A DNA stretch of 37,373 bases from Chloroflexota bacterium (GTDB lineage Bacteria; Chloroflexota; Dehalococcoidia; E44-bin15): the NCBI GenBank assembly GCA_034659515.1, contig JAYEHL010000184.1:1-37373 (forward strand), written 5' to 3'. Positions 8,122 to 34,139 of this stretch are shown here, one piece after another. Numbering within the stretch: the stretch's first letter is position 1; every line of letters begins with the position of its first letter. The notes under the pieces were generated by a model. The model made no database searches. It was not told the origin of the DNA and worked only from the letters and a program-made list of their open reading frames with translations. The translations under genes and the position numbers were made by a program.

Positions 8122-8185
8122 AATACTTATCTCCGTCGATTAGCAGTCCGGAACGAAACGAAATATACTTAGGTAATAAACAACG

Positions 8186-9298
8186 CTATGATTTATTATA
8201 CAGGCTAAAATAGTATTCGTTAACCATCTTTGCGACATTGGGCCAGCTATACCTCTCGGCCTTCCCGCGGCCGCGTGCGCCCATCTCGTGGCGTCTCGGC
8301 TCGTCGTTCAAGAGCTCTATAAGTGCTTTGGTGAGGGCGTTTACGTCCTTCGGGGGCACCATGAGTCCTTCCGCGTCATTGCTTATCAAGCTGGCGTATC
8401 CATCGATGGATGACGCCACTATCGGCTTGGAAGCTGCCATTGCTTCAAGCAATATTATCCCGAAGCTTTCGCCGCCGGTTGCCGGGGAGCAAAACACATC
8501 GGCCGATTGGTAGTATGACGGCAGGTCCTCATTTGGCACATAATCGGAGAAGATCACATCTTCCAGTCTCAGCTTTCTCGCCGCGGGCTCATATTTTTCC
8601 CGATTTCCCGGGCCGACAACGATAAGCCGCGATTTTGGCAACTCCTGTTTCACTCTCCGATAGGCCTTCAGTAGGTAATTCAGCCCTTTACGTTTCTCGG
8701 CGCGGCCCACGAACAGGATGTTCTTTTTGTCGTTAAGCAGGCTATCGATTGGTGGGCGCTCGGTGGAGAAACGTTCGAAATCTATCCCATTCGGTATGAC
8801 CTTATATTCGTCCGGGAAGTACCTGCTTATGAATCTCATTGCCGGTTCCGATACAGCTATCCTGCCGTCGAGCTTGTCGAACGAGCGTTTGAAAAACGGG
8901 CTGATAAGGTGATATGGCACCCTCGTCTTCTGAAAGGCGTGGAAGGTGCCGATGTTTATTGCGTTCGAGTGCTGGAGCACGGTCAGCGTCAGGGTAGAGT
9001 ACAGGGGCTCGTGCATGTGGACGATGTCGAACCTCTCCCTCTCCAGCACCTTCTTCACCGGAGATGACAGCATCGGCGATAATGTAATCCTGGCGATGGA
9101 ACCGGCCGATGGTATGGGAACCGGTTTACCTATAATGATAATATCTTTATTCTCGATGGAATCTTTACGACCGGAGCATGGGGCGATTATCTTGATCTCA
9201 TGACCCAGTCCGACGAGTTCTTTTTGGAGGAACGTAATGTGATTCGCCACGCCGCCGGGGTGAGCAAAGTCGTATGGACAAACGAGCGCCACCTTCAT
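8186..9298 (-). CDS. pimA: GT4 glycosyltransferase, PimA-like (phosphatidylinositol alpha-mannosyltransferase candidate)
   Basis: Appears collinear with mycobacterial PimA as I recall it: MKVALVCPYDFAHPGGVANHI..., FDIVHMHEP, GRIAVSEPA, PNGID, LFVGR..KRKG, GGESFGIILLEAMAA. The symbol is assigned by recalled similarity and context only. Confidence 0.75.
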   Translation of the reverse strand: MKVALVCPYDFAHPGGVANHITFLQKELVGLGHEIKIIAPCSGRKDSIENKDIIIIGKPVPIPSAGSIARITLSPMLSSPVKKVLERERFDIVHMHEPLYSTLTLTVLQHSNAINIGTFHAFQKTRVPYHLISPFFKRSFDKLDGRIAVSEPAMRFISRYFPDEYKVIPNGIDFERFSTERPPIDSLLNDKKNILFVGRAEKRKGLNYLLKAYRRVKQELPKSRLIVVGPGNREKYEPAARKLRLEDVIFSDYVPNEDLPSYYQSADVFCSPATGGESFGIILLEAMAASKPIVASSIDGYASLISNDAEGLMVPPKDVNALTKALIELLNDEPRRHEMGARGRGKAERYSWPNVAKMVNEYYFSLYNKS

Positions 9299-17537: not shown

Positions 17538-19238
17538 CTATTTCGGGAGGAGTATGTCGCGCAATTTTTCGACAACGCCTTCGAGGGGCATGATCGTCGA
17601 TTCCTTCTCGTGCCGCAGCTTAACCTCGACGCTCGTGTTCTTGAGCGTTCTCGGGCTGACTACAACTCTTATGGGCATTCCCAGCAGGTCGGCGTCGTTG
17701 AGCTTGACGCCGGGTGACTCGACTCGATCATCGTACAGGACATCGATTCCGGCGGCGGAGAGATCGGCGTATAGTTTATCGGCGGTCTCAATAACATCCT
17801 CGTTGTCGGTCGACAGCGGACAGAGGTATGCCTGGTAGGGGGCTATCGGCGCGGGCCAGATAATGCCCTTCTCATCGTTGTTTTGCTCTATGGCGGCGGC
17901 CAGCAGCCTGCCGATGCCGATGCCGTAGCAGCCCATGATGACGGGGTGGGATGCGCCCTCGCGGTCGAGGAAGTTGGCCCCCATGCGCTCGCTGAAGAAG
18001 GTGCCCAGCTTGAACACGTGCCCCACTTCGATGCCCTTGACGGCATTCAGCGTTGCGCCGCATTTCGGGCAGCCCTCGCCCGCCCTGGCGGTGGCGATGT
18101 CGATCAACAGGTCGACCTCGAAGTCGCGCGGGTAGTTTACGTTCTTTACGTGTGCACCGGCCTTGTTGGCTCCGGCGACGAAGTTGGCTCCCATCGTTAT
18201 CGATTGATCGGCGACGCGTTTTATGCCCTGCAGCCCTATCGGCGAGGCGTATCCGGCCACCAGACCGGTGGCGGCGACCTCCTCCCCGGTGGCAAGACGC
18301 AGCTCGTGGCAGCCGATGGCGTTCTTCAACTTGACCTCGTTGACCTCTATGTCGCCGCGTATGGATACGTATATGACTGCGCCGTCGCAGGAGTATAACA
18401 CCGCCTTGAGTGTCTTGCCCGGCGGTACGGAGAGGAAGTTCGCCACCTCCTCGATGGTTTTCATCCCCGGCGTGGCTATCTCCTCCATCGGCAGCGGTTC
18501 ACTCGAGTCGTTCTTATGCTTGACGCTCTCCGCCCGCTCGACGTTGGCGGTGTAGTTGCAGGAAGGGCAGTTGATGATAACATCCTCGCCGCTGTCGGCG
18601 ACGACCATGAACTCGTGGGATTCCTTGCCGCCGATAGCGCCGCTGTCGGCCTCGGCGATGAGGAATTGCAGGCCGCAGCGCTCGTATATCCGTTTGTACG
18701 CTTCGATCACTTTGCTATAAGTCGAGTTGAGCGATTCGGCGTCGGCGTCGAAGCTGTACATGTCCTTCATGCCGAATTCGCGCACGCGCAGCAGTCCCCC
18801 TCTAGGGCGAGGCTCGTCGCGGAACTTGGTCTGTATCTGATACAGCATAAGCGGCAGGTCGCGGTAGCTTTGTACGTTGTGCCTCACCAAATCGGTGATG
18901 ATCTCCTCGTGCGTTGGGCCCAGCACCAGCGTGCGCTCGCGACGGTCGTTCAGCGTGAACATCGTCTTGCCGAAGGCGAGGTTGCGCTCGGTATCGACCC
19001 ACATCTCGTAGGGCTGGAGCACCGGCATTTGCAGCTCCTGCGCTCCGATGGCGTTAAGCTCATCGCGCATGATGTTCTCGATCTTTTGGATGGCTCGCAG
19101 GCACACCGGCATGTAGCTGTACACGCCCGATGCCAGCTGCTGGATCATGCCGGCCTTGAGCAGGAGCTGGTGGCTGATGTTCTCCGCCTCCGCCGGTGTT
19201 TGCCTGAGCGTCTTGCCGAATAACTGCGATACTTTCAT
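17538..19238 (-). CDS. proS: proline--tRNA ligase (bacterial type with INS editing domain)
   Basis: Class II motifs (RPRGGLLRVREFGMKDMYSF; GCYGIGIGRL), a central insertion domain and a C-terminal anticodon-binding domain. 566 aa. Confidence 0.95.
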   Translation of the reverse strand: MKVSQLFGKTLRQTPAEAENISHQLLLKAGMIQQLASGVYSYMPVCLRAIQKIENIMRDELNAIGAQELQMPVLQPYEMWVDTERNLAFGKTMFTLNDRRERTLVLGPTHEEIITDLVRHNVQSYRDLPLMLYQIQTKFRDEPRPRGGLLRVREFGMKDMYSFDADAESLNSTYSKVIEAYKRIYERCGLQFLIAEADSGAIGGKESHEFMVVADSGEDVIINCPSCNYTANVERAESVKHKNDSSEPLPMEEIATPGMKTIEEVANFLSVPPGKTLKAVLYSCDGAVIYVSIRGDIEVNEVKLKNAIGCHELRLATGEEVAATGLVAGYASPIGLQGIKRVADQSITMGANFVAGANKAGAHVKNVNYPRDFEVDLLIDIATARAGEGCPKCGATLNAVKGIEVGHVFKLGTFFSERMGANFLDREGASHPVIMGCYGIGIGRLLAAAIEQNNDEKGIIWPAPIAPYQAYLCPLSTDNEDVIETADKLYADLSAAGIDVLYDDRVESPGVKLNDADLLGMPIRVVVSPRTLKNTSVEVKLRHEKESTIMPLEGVVEKLRDILLPK

Positions 19239-19250
19239 TGTCCGGTCCTT

Positions 19251-19409
19251 CTACTTTTCGTCCGTGCCGATTTCCCGTTTTGCGGGCAGTGTCGTTGGAA
19301 TGTTGTAGATGATGATCGCGATCAGCACGACGAGCGCGCCGATGGGCAGCGCCGCCAGCGCTATTATTATTTTAATGAGGCTGAGCGGTAATTTAAACAG
19401 GGTTTTCAT
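19251..19409 (-). CDS. hypothetical 52-aa single-pass membrane peptide
   Basis: Hand translation gives MKTLFKLPLSLIKIIIALAALPIGALVVLIAIIIYNIPTTLPAKREIGTDEK. The stop lies 12 nt upstream of the proS ATG. No clear SD. Below the ORF-track cutoff. Confidence 0.35.
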   Translation of the reverse strand: MKTLFKLPLSLIKIIIALAALPIGALVVLIAIIIYNIPTTLPAKREIGTDEK

Positions 19410-19487
19410 CATAAGTCAACTGCTATTTAGATTATATACTATCTTATTATGTTTCTGATCAATGTTACAGAGATTATACACTTGTCT

Positions 19488-20321
19488 CTATGAAAAATAA
19501 CGTTTAGATATTCCAGTTTTTCTTTCGCCGAGGCTTAGCTCGGCAACTGCATCATCAATTGCTCTCAAAATCTTTATTATCGTATTACATAGGTATGTTA
19601 GCTCAGAAACATCTGCTTTCTTTGAAGATTCGTCCTTTGGTTTGTAGCCATGCCTGTACATTTCCATTTTGGCCATGCAACGGCCCAATGCGTGTTGGAA
19701 ATGATTAAAAATGCGAATGACTGGTCTCAAGTCATCCAATGTGCCTTGATGATATAACATTTCTCTTGACATATTTTGAGTAAATTGATCTATGCCAAAT
19801 ATCGAAGGGTAAAAAGAGAACACGTCGAATTTATCTATATCGATTAAATCTAATCTAAGCGCTTCATTTTTCAGAATGTTTAGAAATTCATCAAAGTTAT
19901 CGTGTGTCTTGCAGATTCTAAAAAAGAGGGCTTCTCGTGTAGGGTTTGGTTGCTTAAAGTAGTTCGCAAAATCAAGAGCGATGGCTTGTATTAAAAATGT
20001 GAGTTGAAATGACATTTCATCAAGGATTTCTTTTTGAATGTCTCTTCGGCGTTCTCTCTCCTTGCGGTCTCTTTCGCGCCTATAGCGGTCGACGAAGAAA
20101 TAGGCAATACCGAGGGTTAAAAACGCGCCAATAATGGATGCGACAAGGCTTTCTTTAAAAGTATTACTCAAATATACACTGGGTAGCACTAATAGTAATA
20201 TGGATGCGACGACAAATGAAATGAATAAAAGAACCCCTTTCTTATCTTTAGGAGTTTTATCTCCTGAGACCTTGCAAACTCTTTGAATAATGGTTTTTTT
20301 CTTTTGTGGTTTTTCTGCCAT
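19488..20321 (-). CDS. hypothetical protein: N-terminal 2-TM hairpin, R/E-rich linker, helical domain of unknown family
   Basis: ATG 20321 with AAGGTGG upstream. TM1 is LLFISFVVASILLLVLPSVYL and TM2 is LVASIIGAFLTLGIAYFFV, followed by RYRRERDRKERERRRD. The gene is strongly AT-rich compared with its neighbours. Confidence 0.6.
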   Translation of the reverse strand: MAEKPQKKKTIIQRVCKVSGDKTPKDKKGVLLFISFVVASILLLVLPSVYLSNTFKESLVASIIGAFLTLGIAYFFVDRYRRERDRKERERRRDIQKEILDEMSFQLTFLIQAIALDFANYFKQPNPTREALFFRICKTHDNFDEFLNILKNEALRLDLIDIDKFDVFSFYPSIFGIDQFTQNMSREMLYHQGTLDDLRPVIRIFNHFQHALGRCMAKMEMYRHGYKPKDESSKKADVSELTYLCNTIIKILRAIDDAVAELSLGERKTGISKRYFS

Positions 20322-20395
20322 CAGCCACCTTTATAGCTTTGCATAACTCTGGGCCGTCCGGTAAAGCCGGATGATGACGTTGGGTCAATTCGCTG

Positions 20396-20600
20396 TAATC
20401 CCCCTTAGTCCCCCTTTGAGAAAGGGGGATTTTAAGGTTCTCTTCGTAGGGGCGTCTGATCGGCCAACTAGCCTGAATAGGGTGAGACGAATCTCGCCTC
20501 TACATCTCAACGTCCCTTGCGGCTTCGGCGCTTCCCCCTCTTTGCCAAAGAGGGGGTTAGGGGGAGTTCGATAACCCGTCATCGCCCGGATTGATCGGGC
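20396..20600. repeat. mosaic hairpin repeat, composite copy A (module 1 at 20396-20439, module 2 at 20531-20570, module 3 at 20580-20600)
   Basis: Module 1 is TAATCCCCCTTAGTCCCCCTTTGaGAAAGGGGGA-TTTTAAGGTT. Module 2 is CTTCCCCCTCTTTGcCAAAGAGGGGGTTAGGGGGAGTTCG, an 11-bp perfect stem. Module 3 is CATCGCCCGgATTGATCGGGC. All three recur at 24019-24241. Confidence 0.85.
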
Positions 20601-20608
20601 GCTCCGGT

Positions 20609-21193
20609 TCATAACCGCTTGCGCTGCTTCACAACCTGCTGCCAGAACTCGTGCTCGGTATCGAGCATCCGTTCAATGTAACTGTCGTCTCGCGCTACGC
20701 TGATATGAACCTCCGGGAGGTTCGGCAGATAGCACCAGAACTCGATTACTTGCAGCTCGGTAACGGCCAGGATGTGCTGCAGCTGACCGAAGTAATACTT
20801 CGGCACTTTTTTAGTAGCCGAAGATTTGCGATACACGCTCTCCCCGCACTTGATCTCCACCACCGCGCTTCCGTCGGTCGCCAATCCGTCTACGCTGGCC
20901 CGCAGCCATTCATACTTTGTGCTTTGCAGGCAGGCGGCTGCCACACGAACGCCGAACTTGCTCTCGTAACGTTTTCGCGCCTCCGGCTCAAGCCTGGTGC
21001 CGCGAGCCATAGCGGCGTTGGGGCCGTACACTTTCCCCTCGCACTTCTCTTGCAGCAGATAGTTCGCGCTCTTCCAGGGGTTCTCGCCCATGATCGCAGG
21101 GGCGTCGGATGCGCCTATGCCCTGGCTGCGCCATTCGAGCCAGGCGGGCGTGCCTTGCCGGAGGTTTACGATTGTGTAAGGTGTGTTATTCAT
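20609..21193 (-). CDS. YqaJ-like viral-recombinase-type exonuclease (PD-(D/E)XK)
   Basis: GTPAWLEWRSQGIGASDAPAIMG, GTRLEPEARKRYE and SVDGL....VVEIKC match the YqaJ / lambda-exonuclease-like layout. 194 aa. Confidence 0.75.
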   Translation of the reverse strand: MNNTPYTIVNLRQGTPAWLEWRSQGIGASDAPAIMGENPWKSANYLLQEKCEGKVYGPNAAMARGTRLEPEARKRYESKFGVRVAAACLQSTKYEWLRASVDGLATDGSAVVEIKCGESVYRKSSATKKVPKYYFGQLQHILAVTELQVIEFWCYLPNLPEVHISVARDDSYIERMLDTEHEFWQQVVKQRKRL

Positions 21194-21220
21194 GTCGTTT
21201 TTCTAGCCTACCATAATCGC

Positions 21221-21272
21221 CATCGCCCGACGAATTGATCGGGCAATCCAGGGGGCGGCTTTCAAAGCCGCC
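21221..21272. repeat. hairpin repeat, module 3 plus ATCCAG-hairpin module
   Basis: CATCGCCCGACGAATTGATCGGGCAATCCAGGGGGCGGCTTTCAAAGCCGCC. It shares CATCGCCCGA..TTGATCGGGC(AATCCAG) with 20580-20600 and 24193-24241, and ends in a 9-bp hairpin GGCGGCTTT/AAAGCCGCC. Confidence 0.8.
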
Positions 21273-21299
21273 GCGGTTTTAAAACTCAGGTTCATCCTC

Positions 21300-23477
21300 T
21301 TATCCCTGTTCGCTCAGGACATGGTTGACCTCGTAATTCTTCGTTACGATAAAATTCGCTTCACTCTTCGATTTTTGGATAATACGATGTTCTATCTCCA
21401 ATACTTTCAGGATGAATTGAAAGTCTTGACCAGGGTCGCGGTTGAAGTTTCTTTCTTTTATTTCATTTATTCTGCTTTGGTAATCCGATTCCAAAAAGAT
21501 TTTCAAAGACGCATTTTTCAAAAGCATGCTATAGGTAAGATCGACAAAGACGATTTCCGTGGTCGTGAGGTCGACTGGCACATTTTCATACTTTTTCGAT
21601 TCTAATCGCCTGCAGTCGGAGGGAATAAAGACTTCCCGAGTTTCCTTTTTTATAGCGCGATCCAGAATCAAATCTAGTTGTTCTAGATTTATCTCTGAAG
21701 GCCCCAGGCATTGGCTAAGTTTGTTCTCACCGTAAGCTTTAAGTCGCTTCTTGTGGTTCTCTGCCGGTGTCAGCTTAAAAAATACATCTCCTGCTATCGT
21801 TGTCCCCCAAAAATTTTGCCTTCTCAACAGATACCGCAGATATTCCGCGATTTCGGTCTTACCCACCCCTGACTCGCCTCCGAGAGCAGCTATGACCCGC
21901 TCTTTTCTATATCGTGCCTTCTTGATTTCTTCAACGATGTACGGAAGCAGCTCCTCCGCCGCTTTTTTATGGCGTGGTTTTATGTGGGGGGGATCTCCTC
22001 GCCAGGTAAAAGTCGATCGATGGTAGGATCGGTGAATCCTTCTTCCAGAAATGGATTCCATTGTTCCGTGAGGAGATTTTCCTTGGCAAAGTAAATCTAC
22101 GATTTCTCCCTGTTTATGTCCTATAGCTTCCCAGTTAAATTCACTTCGGGCTAGCCTATAACCATCTGACGCCAGTTGATTCAGTCGTGTCTTACGGTTC
22201 AATATCATGATCAGCCTTTGCGCGGCGTTGTGAGGATCGTTCGGATCCACAACAATCGCCTCTTTCTCATCGGTGATCCATCTTGTAACGCCCGCGGCTT
22301 TTGAGACCATGACCGGTGCGCGAGCCGCCATTGCCTCCACCACACCCATGCCGAAAGGTTCCATCATTTGCATTCCGATGTAGAACAGACAGTGATGAAC
22401 GAGAACGGCTAAAATCTCCCAGGGTTGACTGGGCAGCCTTACCACCTCATTTTCCGATAATTCGTAATCTTTCATTACTGCAATAATATTGTTTTCGATA
22501 TTGATTTCTTCAAGCGGTGGCTTTTCTTGAGATCCTCCCACAAGAACAAGTTTAAGCCCTTTCATAAGCTGAGGAGCCAGCCGACATGCTTCGCCGAAGA
22601 CCTTCACGACTCCGGGAACATTCTTTGCCTCTGAGAAACGACCGAAATAAATAAAATATTTTCGGGGTGTCAGATTGTATCTATTCAATAAATCCGTTCG
22701 AGGATTTTTGTGTGCGTTAAAAAAATCATTTCCCGCGCCGGCAGGCATGACGAGATGCGGGAATTCACGTTTATAGTATTCTTTCAAAATAGCAGGTTCT
22801 TGCCATGAGTTCGCTATTTCAAAATTTGCTCCTTTGAGAGCCGCCATTTCAAAGCTTTCTCTTGTTCCAAAATTATACTCTTCGCCGAGCCATGTTTCAG
22901 GGTCGTAGGGGTCATATCCGAGAGATATCACTTTATTGATACCAAGCGAATGTGGAATTGCGATAGTTGGTATTTGAAGCCTTTCGCCTATTTCAAGAGC
23001 TATAGTCATACCGTCCGCATAGTGACCTACAACCGCATGTGCGCCAAAGAGAGCTGAAACGGCGACGGCCTTTTCCGCCAGCTCCGGAACAAGAGGGTAT
23101 ATCTCTTCCTTACGTACGAATTCATCGCTACCTGCAGGGATGCGTACAAGCCATAGGTTTTTTGCAAAGGATTCTACGATTGGGTATGGTTTGAACCATC
23201 TCGCTAAAATGATCACCTTTCTTCCCTGCGAGGCCCATGTTCTCGCTACTTCCAGCACATAATACGTTTGCCCCCCCGTATCAGGCACTCCGGCAGGCGG
23301 CGGGTTGTCCCAGTAACCATGCGTGGAGACCATCACGATGCGATTTGCACGTTTGGGAATTCTTTTTCTCAAGAAGGTAGGAATGCGGTATTTTTGAAAG
23401 GTATCATAATATTCTTGCAGGAGATTTGGTGCCAGGTCATATTTTAAAGCCTGATTTTTAAGTTTTTGATCGCTCAA
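21300..23477 (-). CDS. fusion protein: sucrose-phosphate-synthase-like GT4 glycosyltransferase (about aa 45-465) plus uridine-kinase/PRK-like P-loop domain (about aa 505-725)
   Basis: N-terminus: VSTHGYWDNPPPAGVPDTGGQTYYVLEVARTWA (the DTGGQ box of the SPS/SuSy clade) and EPFGMGVVEAMAA (GT-B C-lobe). C-terminus: Walker A GGESGVGKT (nt 21855-21881), GDVFFK, VFVDLTYSML and FLESDYQSRINEIKERN, collinear with Udk as I recall it. The TTG start at 23477 is uncertain; the next Met is aa 49. Confidence 0.8.
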   Translation of the reverse strand: MSDQKLKNQALKYDLAPNLLQEYYDTFQKYRIPTFLRKRIPKRANRIVMVSTHGYWDNPPPAGVPDTGGQTYYVLEVARTWASQGRKVIILARWFKPYPIVESFAKNLWLVRIPAGSDEFVRKEEIYPLVPELAEKAVAVSALFGAHAVVGHYADGMTIALEIGERLQIPTIAIPHSLGINKVISLGYDPYDPETWLGEEYNFGTRESFEMAALKGANFEIANSWQEPAILKEYYKREFPHLVMPAGAGNDFFNAHKNPRTDLLNRYNLTPRKYFIYFGRFSEAKNVPGVVKVFGEACRLAPQLMKGLKLVLVGGSQEKPPLEEINIENNIIAVMKDYELSENEVVRLPSQPWEILAVLVHHCLFYIGMQMMEPFGMGVVEAMAARAPVMVSKAAGVTRWITDEKEAIVVDPNDPHNAAQRLIMILNRKTRLNQLASDGYRLARSEFNWEAIGHKQGEIVDLLCQGKSPHGTMESISGRRIHRSYHRSTFTWRGDPPHIKPRHKKAAEELLPYIVEEIKKARYRKERVIAALGGESGVGKTEIAEYLRYLLRRQNFWGTTIAGDVFFKLTPAENHKKRLKAYGENKLSQCLGPSEINLEQLDLILDRAIKKETREVFIPSDCRRLESKKYENVPVDLTTTEIVFVDLTYSMLLKNASLKIFLESDYQSRINEIKERNFNRDPGQDFQFILKVLEIEHRIIQKSKSEANFIVTKNYEVNHVLSEQG

Positions 23478-23690
23478 AATATAAATTCCCCTGTCACTAT
23501 TTAACCTTGCAGCAACGCTATCCTAACACTCGAAATCAGCGGCTCTTGAAGTGGCAAAACCGCGTGGAAAATCCGCTGCGTTAAGTGGTTAGGAGCTTTT
23601 AAAAAATTACACTTCGCTGGTTTTTATTGTAACACTTTCATCGTGGCTGGGATAAGAACACCCCTAATCCTTCCGATACCGGAATGACCG

Positions 23691-23709
23691 GCAGGAGAAT
23701 TTCTCCTGC
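23691..23709 (-). terminator. perfect 9-bp hairpin 20 nt downstream of the Smr gene stop (no U-tract)
   Basis: GCAGGAGAA-t-TTCTCCTGC as read on the + strand. On the - strand it is followed by CGGTCATTCC, so it is not a canonical intrinsic terminator. Confidence 0.25.
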
Positions 23710-23728
23710 ACCGCTTTTCCAGCAGTCT

Positions 23729-23983
23729 CTAAAATCTGAAGTGAACGAAAATCCTTCCGAAATTCTTGTCGTCTTTCTCCAGCCGATGGTATTGTTTCTT
23801 TATCTCCGGCTTCATTAGAAATCGCAAAACATGCTTTTTCAATTGTCCGCTTCCCTTGCCGGGAATAATCTCCACTAAGGCGATCTTCTTTTCCACCGCC
23901 TCCGCGATAACCCTGTTTAGCTCCGCGTCGATGGCGAGACCCCTGTTATAGATATCGTGCAGGTCCAGTTTGATTTTTGCCAT
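23729..23983 (-). CDS. small Smr-domain protein
   Basis: 84 aa: KLDLHD...A...L...I.......ALVEIIPGKGSGQLKKHVLRFL follows the Smr pattern (LDLHG ... IIHGKGSG.L). Here HD replaces HG and IPGKG replaces IHGKG. AAGGA lies 8 nt upstream of the ATG. Confidence 0.65.
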   Translation of the reverse strand: MAKIKLDLHDIYNRGLAIDAELNRVIAEAVEKKIALVEIIPGKGSGQLKKHVLRFLMKPEIKKQYHRLEKDDKNFGRIFVHFRF

Positions 23984-24018
23984 TGAAGATTTCCTTAGGG
24001 TTCAACCCCCTGTGATCC

Positions 24019-24241
24019 TAATCCCCCTTAGTCCCCCTTTGCGAAAGGGGGAGTTTTAAGGTTAGGGGACACCCCTAAAACCCCGGTCCTTCCAATTCTG
24101 GAAGGACACCGCTGCTTCAACGCCCCCTGTCCTTCCGCGGAAGGACTTCCCCCTCTTTGTCAAAGAGGGGGTTAGGGGGAGTTCGTGTTCCTCATTGCCC
24201 GACTTGATCAGGCAATCCAGAGGGCGAATTGCAATTCGCTC
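24019..24241. repeat. mosaic hairpin repeat, composite copy B (module 1 at 24019-24063, module 2 at 24146-24185, module 3 plus ATCCAG-hairpin at 24193-24241)
   Basis: Same orientation as copy A. Module 1 differs by 1 substitution and 1 indel; module 2 matches at 39/40. The centre is unrelated and carries its own hairpins: GTCCTTCCA-attc-TGGAAGGAC (24086-24107) and the palindrome GTCCTTCCGCGGAAGGAC (24129-24146). Confidence 0.85.
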
Positions 24242-24244
24242 TTA

Positions 24245-24643
24245 CTAAAGCGAATCCAGGTGTATTTCCGGGTCTTCTTCTACTTCCGCGTACCACGGCT
24301 CGGGGTCTATGTCCTGAAGCGCGGTGGCGGCCGCTCGCCGCACCAGCGTGTCGTTGTCATCGAGCGCCTCGGTGAGCGCGGGGATCGCCGCCTCGACGAT
24401 ATCTTTGTGGCTGATCCCGATCTTGCCGATGGCGCCCGCGGCTGCGGAGCGCGTCATCGAATCCCAGTGCTTGAGCGCATCGATAAGGGCCGGGATCGCC
24501 CCGGCGGCGTCGGGGCCGAGTTTTGATAGTGCATTGGCGGCTGCGTAGCGTAGCGAGTTGTTCTTGCTTTTTAGCGCCCCGGTAAGGCCCTCGATGTTCC
24601 GGCTGGCGGCTAGTTCGCCGATATTCGTTTTGAGTTTGCTCAT
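24245..24643 (-). CDS. small HEAT-repeat (PBS-lyase-type) protein
   Basis: 132 aa with three or four repeats of the R..AA.ALG.IG...A...L...L.D type (LRYAAANALSKLGPDAAGAIPALIDAL; TRSAAAGAIGKIG; LVRRAAATALQDI). Confidence 0.7.
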   Translation of the reverse strand: MSKLKTNIGELAASRNIEGLTGALKSKNNSLRYAAANALSKLGPDAAGAIPALIDALKHWDSMTRSAAAGAIGKIGISHKDIVEAAIPALTEALDDNDTLVRRAAATALQDIDPEPWYAEVEEDPEIHLDSL

Positions 24644-24682: not shown

Positions 24683-24710
24683 ATCCAGAGGGCGAATCGC
24701 AATTCGCCCC
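24683..24710. repeat. ATCCAG-hairpin module, solo copy
   Basis: ATCCAGAGGGCGAATCGCAATTCGCCCC. Compare AATCCAGAGGGCGAATTGCAATTCGC at 24214-24239 and AATCCAGGGGGCGGC... at 21245. Lies between the HEAT gene start and the ispG stop. Confidence 0.75.
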
Positions 24711-24719
24711 TACCTCTAT

Positions 24720-34047: not shown

Positions 34048-34139
34048 GGAGGGATCGCATAGTGGTCTAGTGCGGCCGCCTGCTAAGCGGTTACCCTGAG
34101 TGATCGGGGTCGAGGGTTCGAATCCCTCTCCCTCCGCCA
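34048..34139 (+). tRNA. tRNA-Ser(GCU), class II with long variable arm, CCA encoded
   Basis: Hand fold. Acceptor GGAGGGA/TCCCTCC. Anticodon stem GCCGC/GCGGT with loop CU-GCU-AA. A 19-nt variable region (TACCCTGAGTGATCGGGGT). T arm GAGGG-TTCGAAT-CCCTC. Discriminator G, then CCA. Confidence 0.9.

What the first reader, a model, noticed from the sequence alone, without database searches (positions are those of the whole stretch)
20396..24241. Two same-orientation copies of a modular (BIME-like) hairpin repeat bracket a 3.4 kb cargo of YqaJ nuclease, GT-kinase fusion and Smr protein
Seen: copy A (20396-20600) and copy B (24019-24241) share three ordered modules in direct orientation. Module 1 is TAATCCCCCTTAGTCCCCCTTTGnGAAAGGGGGA(G)TTTTAAGGTT, containing a CCCCCTTT/AAAGGGGG hairpin; the two copies differ by 1 substitution and 1 indel. 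Module 2 is CTTCCCCCTCTTTGyCAAAGAGGGGGTTAGGGGGAGTTCG, with an 11-bp perfect stem; the copies match at 39/40. Module 3 is CATyGCCCGA.TTGATCrGGC. Between modules 1 and 2 the two copies have unrelated centres of 91 and 82 nt. Copy B's centre has two further GTCCTTCC...GGAAGGAC hairpins. Solo or partial modules sit at 21221-21272 and 24683-24710, so each intergenic gap in the insertion holds at least one module. Inference: this is a REP/BIME- or MITE-like family. The 40-nt near-identical direct modules could mediate deletion or circular excision of the 3418-bp segment between them. Alternatively they act as transcript-stabilising or terminating hairpins, since most lie just 3' of - strand genes. 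The supplied ORFs across them (20371..20574, 20385..20612, 24185..24526) are translation artefacts of the repeats.
Basis: seen in the sequence. Interest (0 to 1): 0.6.

Follow-up and report, generated by a model that had tools for sequence, protein, structure and literature searches.

The report
Mosaic of REP-like hairpin repeats
Two ~170-base non-coding hairpin clusters in an uncultured Dehalococcoidia genome belong to widespread REP-type palindromic repeat families; they are not the ends of a 3.4-kb mobile cargo, although in a sister population such repeats mark the exact ends of a 909-base gene loss.

Summary
In detail: copies A (20397-20600) and B (24019-24241) share the three ordered modules as described.

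Each copy is a REPIN-like doublet. Module 1 and module 2 are imperfect inverted copies of one C5/G5 hairpin unit, and together they close a multi-hairpin domain. Each doublet sits in a BIME/NIME-like mosaic with CGTC-tagged REPs (module 3), GTAG-tagged REPs and lineage-specific hairpins.

The modules are dispersed. In the source metagenome they reach about 10x, 55x and 180x the genome's depth. The 19-mer core of module 1 occurs in more than 117 loci from about 20 phylum-level groups.

The 3.4-kb "cargo" is not a unit. YqaJ, Smr and the HEAT gene are syntenic residents between ispG and proS in relatives. Only the GT-kinase gene and a 277-aa ORF are lineage-specific additions.

Repeat-mediated gene loss is real in a relative. 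Two 99.4-99.7% identical contigs differ by a clean 909-bp HEAT+Smr indel bounded by a perfect 35-bp direct repeat of this family.

No deletion junction, transposase, integrase, target-site duplication or Rfam match was found. What copies the repeats remains unknown.

The parts
20397..20570 (.). Copy A: REPIN-like doublet. It comprises module 1 (20397-20439, hairpin 20409-20429), a 91-nt centre and module 2 (20531-20570, hairpin 20534-20556). The outer stem is AATCCCCC / GGGGGAGTT.
20446..20503 (.). Centre of copy A. It holds GTAG-tagged palindrome pieces: GTAGGGGCG... on the + strand at 20446, and GTAGAGGCGAGATTCGTCTCACC on the - strand ending at 20503.
   Evidence: sequence; fold; definition of GTAG REPs in PMC3733652
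20579..20605 (+). Module 3, copy 1: a CGTC-tagged REP (CGTC-ATCGCCCGG-ATTGA-TCGGGCGCT). It lies just 3' of the YqaJ stop.
   Evidence: family definition
20609..21193 (-). YqaJ-like nuclease gene. It is a resident of the locus, not cargo.
   Evidence: Pfam PF09588, E = 1.4e-30; 85% nt identity and the same position in L119/L120
21219..21276 (+). YqaJ leader mosaic: a CGTC-type REP (ATCGCCCGA..TCGGGCAAT-CCA) followed by the hairpin GGCGGCTTTCAAAGCCGCC (21254-21272). The REP part is conserved upstream of YqaJ in L119/L120.
21300..23477 (-). GT4 glycosyltransferase fused to a P-loop kinase. It is a lineage-specific, low-GC addition. The inserted block spans about 21277-23655.
23658..23728 (.). Truncated intergenic unit after Smr. 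It carries the hairpin GCAGGAGAATTTCTCCTGC (23691-23709) and ends in TAGGGGTG, where homology to relatives stops.
23729..23983 (-). Smr-domain gene, a resident of the locus.
   Evidence: Pfam PF01713; 81% nt identity to L119
24020..24185 (.). Copy B: REPIN-like doublet. It comprises module 1 (24020-24063, hairpin 24032-24052), a centre with hairpins at 24064-24085, 24086-24107 and 24129-24146, and module 2 (24146-24185, hairpin 24149-24171). It is homologous over its whole length to the intergenic units of L121.
24190..24222 (+). Module 3, copy B: a CGTC-type REP (CCTC-ATTGCCCGA-CTTGA-TCAGGCAAT-CCA). It is the most abundant module: depth about 2070 against a genome depth of 11.5.
24221..24244 (-). 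GTAG-type REP variant (- strand: GTAA-GAGCGAAT-TGCA-ATTCGCCCTC). It lies immediately 3' of the HEAT gene stop.
   Evidence: (D1, I15)
24245..24643 (-). HEAT-repeat gene. It is a resident of the locus and is present or absent among relatives.
24683..24713 (-). Solo GTAG-tagged REP (- strand: GTAG-GGGCGAAT-TGCG-ATTCGCCC-TCTGGAT). It lies 3' of ispG.
19488..20321 (-). 277-aa ORF with no family match, GC about 0.43. It is a lineage-specific addition outside the A-B bracket, and it is absent from relatives and from the cold-seep relative.
19251..19409 (-). 52-aa membrane-type ORF, conserved next to proS in relatives.

Best explanation
Copies A and B are two members of a dispersed, non-coding family of REPIN-like palindromic doublets.

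Structure. The unit is about 33 nt: AATCCCCC-nnnn-TCCCCCTTTG-loop-AAAGGGGGA. It is paired with an imperfect inverted copy of itself (module 2). Together the two close a domain into which other hairpins have been nested. These doublets, with CGTC-tagged REPs (module 3), GTAG-tagged REPs and lineage-specific hairpins, form a BIME/NIME-like mosaic. The mosaic fills the intergenic gaps of a variable stretch between ispG and proS in a Dehalococcoidia chromosome.

Shown here:
- The families are multi-copy, extragenic and found with unrelated flanks in many genomes.
- The genes between A and B are mostly old residents of the locus.
- In a sister population, two direct copies of such a repeat are the exact ends of a 909-bp loss of HEAT+Smr.

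Inferred:
- The hairpins spread as non-autonomous elements copied in trans through single-stranded hairpin intermediates, without target duplication, as proposed for REP/REPIN. The enzyme is not identified.
- Their main effect here is to offer 35-45-bp homology tracts for recombination or replication slippage. This makes the interval a cassette-like hotspot of gene gain and loss.
- On the polycistronic - strand mRNA they would fold into very stable domains that may protect 3' ends or separate cistrons.
For: Repeat identity and structure.

Doublet architecture:
- It is shared by 15 elements from 8 or more phylum-level groups and by both window copies.
- The loops of the two halves are complementary to each other, and 0/500 shuffles reach the covariation score.

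Multi-copy and dispersed:
- In run X1 the depths are about 625-680 (module 1), 105-135 (module 2) and about 2070 (module 3B), against a genome depth of 11.5.
- Depth is also high in X3, where this genome is absent. The flanks are diverse.
- The 19-mer has more than 117 genome loci. About 4 would be expected by chance (own calculation).
- The exact 28-mer of module 3B occurs in 4 unrelated JGI contigs.
- 112/127 instances are intergenic and show no orientation bias. They are more frequent between convergent genes than between divergent ones.
- Neighbouring genes are ordinary and diverse.
- No target-site duplication was found: 0/46 for lengths of 3 nt or more.

Family assignment: module 3 and the 24683 motif fit the published CGTC and GTAG REP definitions.

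Locus history:
- Synteny is ispG-[HEAT]-[Smr]-YqaJ-52aa-proS in L119-L123.
- More distant relatives hold other genes in the same interval.

Deletion at repeats: L119 and L120 are 99.4-99.7% identical. They differ by a 909-bp indel bounded by perfect 35-bp direct repeats, and L120 carries its own SNP in the surviving copy.
Against: - No enzyme that could copy the elements was found in the window, in 202 flanking ORFs or in about 1 Mb of loci (a weak test).
- The rest of this genome could not be searched.
- No A x B recombinant or circle was seen in the source run, but only assembled contigs were available.
- Module 1 has no conserved GTAG/CGTC tag. It is spread over about 20 phylum-level groups, unlike classical lineage-bound REPINs.
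- The deletion in L120 cannot distinguish homologous from site-specific recombination.
- No RNA data exist for any transcript-level role.
Confidence: 0.6

Rival explanations
1. Cis-acting RNA elements come first. The hairpin domains are selected as operon punctuation on the - strand transcript: 3'-end protection, RNase III-type processing sites, insulation of cistrons, or sequestered Shine-Dalgarno-like AAAGGGGGA/AAAGGAGG arms. Their repetition would be a by-product of this function.
For: - All copies lie between co-directional genes.
- RNA folds are very stable: -113 and -83 kcal/mol, z = -6.0 and -2.6.
- Some stems tolerate G-U pairs.
- Family members are more frequent in convergent than in divergent gaps.
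- The REP literature reports transcript-level roles.
Against: - No U-tract terminators at the modules.
- No orientation bias relative to flanking genes: 29 same versus 30 opposite.
- No Rfam family.
- A purely structural role does not need a 19-mer conserved to the base across phyla.
- No RNA-seq data are available.
Confidence: 0.15
2. Classical MITEs. A and B are about 170-nt non-autonomous transposons with about 40-nt terminal inverted repeats, mobilised by a DDE transposase encoded elsewhere.
For: - Imperfect terminal inverted repeats: module 1 against the reverse complement of module 2.
- Size of 80-170 nt, no coding capacity, many copies.
Against: - No target-site duplication at 46 closed elements or at A or B.
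- Single 33-nt units and tandem arrays occur on their own.
- No autonomous element with these ends was found in about 1 Mb of loci.
- Only 4 hits in 2.9 million viral contigs.
Confidence: 0.1
3. An integron-like cassette array. Each gene plus its downstream repeat would be a cassette exchanged by a site-specific recombinase acting on the folded repeat, in the manner of attC.
For: - One small gene per repeat unit, all in one orientation.
- The repeat ends in GGGGGTTGA/GTTAGGG close to the next start codon.
- Whole genes are present or absent between relatives, with one repeat copy left behind.
Against: - No complementary R'' (RYYYAAC) / R' (GTTRRRY) pair at the repeat ends (sequence).
- No integrase or attI in the 37-kb window or in the relatives' 21-kb loci.
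- The units are sequence-conserved, unlike attC sites.
- The GT-kinase block is not bounded by the repeats.
Confidence: 0.07
4. A local duplication or an assembly artefact. The two copies would arise from a local duplication or from a mis-join at metagenomic repeats.
For: - The window is a metagenome contig.
- Logan unitigs break exactly at the modules.
Against: - Gene order across both copies matches relatives.
- Depths of adjoining pieces agree, at 11.5-14.2.
- A and B share no exact 31-mer, and the modules (33-45 nt) are shorter than a read.
- The modules exist in many other genomes.
Confidence: 0.03

Closest known systems
REP sequences and BIMEs (bacterial interspersed mosaic elements) of Enterobacteria; GTAG- and CGTC-tagged REP superfamilies (Di Nocera et al. 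2013, PMC3733652)
   Same: - Short extragenic palindromes in high copy, combined in mosaics in intergenic gaps between co-directional or convergent genes.
- Module 3 has the CGTC/CCTC tag, a 9-bp stem starting with AT, a 5-nt loop and a CCA tail.
- The 24683 motif has the GTAG tag followed by an 8-bp stem.
   Different: - The host is Dehalococcoidia. CGTC REPs were reported from five other phyla.
- Modules 1 and 2 carry no conserved tag and have homopyrimidine/homopurine C5/G5 arms.
- The mosaic's linker motifs are unrelated to those of E. coli BIMEs.
REPIN-RAYT systems (Bertels and Rainey 2011, PMC3116915)
   Same: Two inverted copies of a hairpin unit are separated by a spacer and fold into one long hairpin. 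Copy number is high, there is no target duplication, and there is no coding capacity.
   Different: - No RAYT was found.
- The spacers here are 82-91 nt and filled with other hairpins.
- The unit's core is shared by about 20 phylum-level groups, whereas REPIN populations are described as lineage-bound and vertically inherited (abstracts seen).
Neisseria intergenic mosaic elements (NIMEs) with dRS3 repeats, and 'minimal mobile elements'
   Same: - dRS3 is a CGTC-1 REP clustered in large intergenic mosaics with other repeat families.
- Gene cassettes between conserved flanking genes differ among strains. This point rests on my own knowledge of the Neisseria literature.
   Different: - The stem sequences differ: ATTGCCCGA versus ATTCCC-N8-GGGAAT.
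- There is no evidence here for transformation-driven exchange or for phage integration at the repeats.
Integron gene cassettes with attC sites
   Same: Single promoterless-looking genes in one orientation, each followed by a folded imperfect inverted repeat. Genes are present or absent with one repeat copy left behind.
   Different: There are no R''/R' core sites and no integrase or attI. The repeats are conserved in sequence and dispersed genome-wide rather than confined to one array.

Membership tests
REP superfamily, CGTC-tagged (PMC3733652) | Terminal CGTC tag (also TGTC or CCTC), a stem of 8-9 bp beginning with AT, a loop of 4-5 nt, and an unpaired CCA tail | tested here: met
   Module 3 at 24190-24222 reads CCTC-ATTGCCCGA-CTTGA-TCAGGCAAT-CCA. 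The 20579 copy has CGTC. The 21219 copy has the CCA tail but an 8-nt loop.
REP superfamily, GTAG-tagged (PMC3733652) | Unpaired GTAG (or a degenerate form) at one end of a 6-13-bp stem-loop | tested here: met
   On the - strand, 24713-24683 reads GTAG-GGGCGAAT-TGCG-ATTCGCCC. There is a variant with GTAA at 24244-24221, and GTAG pieces lie inside centre A. Modules 1 and 2 do not carry this tag.
REP in general | High copy number, extragenic, unrelated flanks | tested here: met
   Depth is 10-180x that of the genome in X1, and is also high in X2 and X3. 112/127 instances are intergenic. The copy number within this one genome could not be measured.
REPIN-RAYT | Two REPs in inverted orientation with a spacer, forming a long hairpin | tested here: met
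   Module 1 and module 2 form such a pair. So do 15 compact doublets from other phyla, in which the loops are complementary between the halves.
REPIN-RAYT | A cognate single-copy Y1 (HUH) transposase (RAYT) in the same genome, usually flanked by the repeats | not testable with these tools
   None is present in the 37-kb window, among 202 ORFs flanking family members or in about 1 Mb of loci by phmmer with a recalled IS200 TnpA sequence (low sensitivity). The rest of the genome is not available.
REPIN-RAYT | A population confined to one lineage and inherited vertically | tested here: not met
   The module 1 core occurs in more than 117 loci from about 20 phylum-level groups. Orthologous copies are nonetheless kept among Cyclobacterium genomes.
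MITE | Terminal inverted repeats together with a target-site duplication | tested here: not met
   Terminal inverted repeats are present. No duplication of 3 nt or more was found at 46 closed elements or at A or B.
Integron attC / gene cassette | Complementary R'' (RYYYAAC) and R' (GTTRRRY) core sites at the ends of the folded site, with intI and attI nearby | tested here: not met
   GTTAGGG/GTTGAAT-like strings occur at the 3' end, but no complementary ..AAC partner occurs at the 5' end. No integrase is present in the window or in the relatives' loci.
Intrinsic terminator | A G+C-rich hairpin followed by a U tract on the transcribed strand | tested here: not met
   None of the 10 terminator-like sites between 19 and 25 kb falls on a module.
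Any curated RNA family (Rfam 15) | A covariance-model match | tested here: not met
   The only match in the window is a tRNA at 34048. Between 20.3 and 24.8 kb there are only chance-level hits with E above 1.

The most novel reading that the evidence does not exclude
The 33-nt C5/G5 hairpin unit (module 1) would be a pan-bacterial element. It is conserved to the base in about 20 phylum-level groups, including CPR bacteria with tiny genomes. On this reading it is recognised and copied by a still unknown, widely shared trans-acting factor. Its doublets would serve as integrase-free boundaries that let single genes be gained and lost inside otherwise rigid housekeeping operons.
Probability: 0.15. 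Interest if true: 0.75.

Novelty: new member of a known kind. Interest (0 to 1): 0.45.

Why it matters
REP-type repeats are best known from Proteobacteria. This locus shows GTAG- and CGTC-type REPs plus an undescribed untagged C5/G5 doublet family in an uncultured Dehalococcoidia.

It also gives a clean natural example of such repeats marking the ends of a gene loss, inside the highly conserved rpsB...ispG-proS-nusA-infB gene block.

The near-identity of the module 1 core across about 20 phylum-level groups is not expected from the view that REPIN populations are lineage-bound. If it holds, it points to an unidentified shared copying or binding factor.

Practically, these repeats break metagenome assemblies and generate spurious ORFs. 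A model of them would help annotation of MAGs.

Tried and rejected
- Rfam at gathering and E-value thresholds: nothing found.
- Literature string searches for the module 1 core: no paper. Strings of the dRS3 type returned only Neisseria papers.
- Plasmid BLAST of copy B: no match.
- Viral contigs: 4 hits only, so phage carriage was rejected as the main vehicle.
- Defence-system models (PADLOC) for the five genes: nothing meaningful.
- Pfam on the repeat-spanning ORFs: nothing.
- Promoter and terminator scan: the modules are not canonical sites.
- Transposase or integrase next to family members: none enriched. The local phmmer search with a recalled IS200 TnpA sequence found nothing, but it has low sensitivity.
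- Target-site duplication test: negative.
- RNA runs: none available.
- Deletion or circle junctions:
  - The X2 joint 20571->24194 carries 39 extra bases, so it is another family copy.
  - The 'goes back' joints come from one contig whose two ends both match the short reference.
  - Neither is an excision product.
- Exact look-up of IspG: not on record.
- The idea that 'TTAG' is a conserved REP-like tag was dropped. It was part of the search pattern, and it varies in tandem arrays.
Full report
**1.
Reading the sequence and the repeat finder confirm the modules:
- Module 1 lies at 20396-20439 and 24019-24063, with one substitution and one indel between the copies.
- Module 2 lies at 20531-20570 and 24146-24185, with 39/40 identity.
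- Module 3 (GCCCGA..TCGGGC) lies at 20580, 21221 and 24193.
- The motif ATCCAGRGGGCG followed by a hairpin lies at 21246, 24215 and 24683.

The module 2 palindrome has no match in 100 shuffles. Of the 11 perfect hairpins of at least 8 bp in the 37-kb window, 8 lie in the intergenic gaps between 20.4 and 24.7 kb.

Two points add to the description. First, the reverse complement of module 2 is an imperfect copy of module 1. Each copy is therefore an inverted doublet. Its outer stem (AATCCCCC / GGGGGAGTT) closes a multi-branched domain in the predicted folds of both strands (z = -8.3 and -4.9 as DNA). Second, the centres are not random filler, as shown in section 3.

**2. Where the window comes from, and what the genes are.**
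ProS homologues place the window in Dehalococcoidia. The DNA is 98% covered by a brine metagenome run (X1) and partly by a cold-seep run (X2).

All genes of interest are on the - strand: infB, nusA, proS (17538-19238), a 52-aa ORF (19251-19409), a 277-aa ORF with no family match (19488-20321), YqaJ (20609-21193), a GT4 glycosyltransferase fused to a P-loop kinase (21300-23477), Smr (23729-23983), a HEAT-repeat protein (24245-24643), ispG and rseP. GC falls to 0.43-0.50 between 19 and 24 kb, against about 0.57 elsewhere. No integrase or transposase is present anywhere in the window.

**3. The 3.4-kb segment is not one cargo.**
Contigs encoding ProS proteins 75-78% identical to this one carry the same long syntenic block: rpsB-tsf-pyrH-frr-uppS-cdsA-dxr-rseP-ispG ... 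proS-nusA-infB-rbfA-truB. Between ispG and proS they hold [HEAT]-[Smr]-YqaJ-52aa.

BLAST of the window against these loci gives 85% nt identity for YqaJ, 81% for Smr and 70-73% for HEAT, each at the same relative position. The window-specific DNA consists of two blocks:
- About 21277-23655, which holds the GT-kinase gene. Its upstream end lies inside a truncated intergenic unit (...TAGGGGTG|). Its downstream end lies just before the conserved YqaJ leader.
- About 19413-20613, which holds copy A plus the 277-aa ORF.

The GT-kinase protein has its best homologues (71%) in Thermodesulfobacteriota MAGs. A 78% homologue lies in an unrelated AT-rich context without these repeats. Horizontal acquisition is therefore likely.

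More distant relatives (72-74% ProS identity) hold quite different genes between ispG and proS: a 173-aa ORF; 109-aa and 292-aa ORFs plus an N6/N4 methyltransferase; a pentapeptide/ion-channel protein. The interval is thus a hotspot within a rigid housekeeping block.

**4. Copy B is an old, conserved intergenic unit.**
In relative L121, a unit of about 170 nt stands after ispG, after HEAT (partial) and after Smr. The unit reads:
AACTCCCCC-nnn-CCCCCTCTTTG..AAAGAGGGGGAAG / ..GGGGGCGTTC.. / hairpin / CGGGGTnnTAGGGGTGTCCCCTAAC / ..TCCCCCC..GGGGGAT.CAGGGGGTTGA.

It is colinear with the reverse complement of copy B over its whole length, so B's centre is lineage-specific but conserved. Its sub-hairpins occur only in the window and its relatives. 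They also occur at one other locus of a relative (L120, 220-360).

**5. Direct evidence that such repeats delimit gene loss.**
L119 and L120 encode the identical ProS protein, come from two different assemblies, and are 99.4% and 99.7% identical over 8.2 kb and 3.7 kb of flank. They differ by one clean 909-bp indel that removes HEAT and Smr.

L119 has the 35-mer GGAAGGACCATGATTGGGGGATAAAGGGGGTTGAC at 8147-8181 and again, perfectly, at 9056-9090. L120 has a single copy. That copy carries the left-hand hairpin loop of copy 1, the right-hand flank of copy 3, and a private SNP.

Because HEAT and Smr are present in more distant relatives, the L120 state is a deletion.

In the source run I found no A x B junction. 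Only assembled contigs, which drop rare variants, were available.

**6. The modules belong to dispersed families.**
Fine-scale depth in X1 (genome depth 11.5) is about 625-680 over module 1, 105-135 over module 2 and about 2070 over 24190-24222. Depth is also high in X3, where this genome is absent. Many contigs diverge exactly at 24020, 24052, 20397 and 20429. The basic unit is therefore the 33-mer AATCCCCCTTAGTCCCCCTTTGnGAAAGGGGGA.

A uniform model predicts about 4 chance hits in 1.2e12 positions (my calculation).

The record titles name the following groups: Dehalococcoidia and other Chloroflexota (the largest group), Omnitrophota, several CPR lineages, Calditrichota, Nitrospirota, Nitrospinota, Planctomycetota (Brocadia, Scalindua), Leptospiraceae, Bacteroidota isolates (Cyclobacterium, Marivirga), Chlorobiota, several Pseudomonadota, Desulfobacterota, Elusimicrobiota, Binatia, Trueperaceae, Riflebacteria, Zixibacteria, WOR-3, Schekmanbacteria and Scytonema.

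Other properties of these instances:
- In almost all hits the complementary arm AAAGGGGGA follows.
- 112 of 127 instances are intergenic by a crude gene call. They show no orientation bias (29 same versus 30 opposite) and are twice as frequent between convergent genes as between divergent ones.
- The 202 flanking ORFs are ordinary and diverse, with no enriched transposase or integrase.
- IMG/VR holds only 4 hits.
- There is no target-site duplication at 46 closed elements.

**7. Architecture of the family.**
Elements come in three forms:
- Single long hairpins of about 50 nt, with a perfect 20-22-bp stem in L002 and L030.
- Doublets of about 80 nt: the unit, a short spacer, and an inverted unit.
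- Tandem arrays.

An alignment of 15 doublets from different phyla with the two window copies (centres removed) shows the same layout. The pairing of half 1 with half 2 includes the loops, which are complementary to each other; 0 of 500 shuffles reach the observed covariation score. The three-way-junction reading is equally well paired, at 85%.

This is the REPIN layout: two inverted REPs that fold into one long hairpin. Copies A and B are such doublets, with 82-91 nt of other hairpins nested at the spacer.

**8. The other modules are known kinds.**
Di Nocera et al. (PMC3733652) define CGTC-tagged REPs by four features: a tag of CGTC, TGTC or CCTC; a stem of 8-9 bp beginning with AT; a loop of 4-5 nt; and a CCA tail. 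They note that Neisseria dRS3 repeats are CGTC-1 elements clustered in intergenic mosaics with other repeats.

Module 3 at 24190-24222 (CCTC-ATTGCCCGA-CTTGA-TCAGGCAAT-CCA) fits this definition exactly. Its 28-mer occurs in four JGI contigs with unrelated GC-rich and AT-rich flanks, next to sister hairpins of the same frame.

The - strand motif GTAG-GGGCGAAT-TGCG-ATTCGCCC at 24713-24683 fits the GTAG-tagged class.

**9. What it most likely does.**
Shown:
- The elements are non-coding, multi-copy and extragenic, with nested palindromes.
- They sit in a gene-content hotspot.
- A repeat-bounded deletion exists in a sister population.

Inferred:
- The hairpins spread in trans through single-stranded intermediates without target duplication, as proposed for REP/REPIN elements. 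The enzyme is unknown, and the rest of the genome could not be searched.
- Direct copies act as 35-45-bp homology tracts for deletion or duplication.
- On mRNA the domains (-83 to -113 kcal/mol) could stabilise or separate cistrons.

The modules are not canonical terminators, match no Rfam family and have no RNA data. Integron-like and MITE readings fail their defining tests: there are no R''/R' sites or integrase, and no target-site duplication.

**10. Verdict.**
The finding is real and the family assignment is essentially right. The 'cargo bracketed by repeats' reading is wrong for this segment, while the proposed recombination mechanism is borne out in a relative.

The unexplained part is the base-level conservation of the module 1 core across about 20 phylum-level groups, with no visible vehicle or enzyme. 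I could find no description of it in Rfam or in the searchable literature.

Noticed in passing
window 21300-23477 (- strand): A GT4 (sucrose-synthase-like) glycosyltransferase fused to a uridine-kinase/PRK-like P-loop kinase, GC 0.45-0.48. Its best homologues (71%) are in Thermodesulfobacteriota, and some sources call relatives mannosylfructose-phosphate synthase. It is probably a horizontally acquired compatible-solute gene in a brine organism.
   Followed up: partly
window 19488-20321 (- strand): A 277-aa ORF with no Pfam or PADLOC match, GC about 0.43. It is absent from relatives L119-L123 and from the cold-seep relative (depth 0 at 19505-20106). The Logan unitig breaks at 19281-19308 inside the 52-aa ORF, which suggests strain-level variation there.
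   Followed up: partly
L123 8530-8650: A truncated N-terminal remnant of the HEAT gene runs directly into the Smr start. This is a second, different deletion in the same hotspot.
   Followed up: no
L128, L130, L131 (between ispG and proS): More distant Dehalococcoidia hold unrelated genes in the same interval (a 173-aa ORF; an N6/N4 DNA methyltransferase with two small ORFs; a pentapeptide/ion-channel protein). These genes are tightly packed and lack the hairpin units.
   Followed up: partly
L013, L053, L060, L083, L106, L109, L114, L116 (Parcubacteria MAG VMEV01): In this small CPR genome, an almost invariant 80-nt doublet (CAACAAATCCCCC...GGGATTTGTTG) sits in many gaps between small housekeeping genes (msrB, DCC1-like, DsbD, HAD, HicB).
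   Followed up: partly
L029, L077, L113, L003/L005: Sister hairpins of the doublets read CCTCCTTT..AAAGGAGG. This is a perfect Shine-Dalgarno sequence paired with a copy of the 16S 3'-end sequence. The 3' halves (GGGAGGGTTGGGGAGGG) also have four G-tracts, giving G-quadruplex potential.
   Followed up: no
L009 2004-2586; L049 1730-1800 and 3075-3300: Tandem arrays. L009 (Calditrichaceae) has three units of about 280 bp, each carrying the hairpin. L049 (WOR-3) has 3-5 head-to-tail 33-35-nt units.
   Followed up: no
L121 807-1053: Nine tandem copies of an 18-nt unit inside the first called gene of this relative (363 aa, no Pfam hit).
   Followed up: no
window 34048-34136 (+ strand): A tRNA gene. 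It is the only Rfam match in the window.
   Followed up: no
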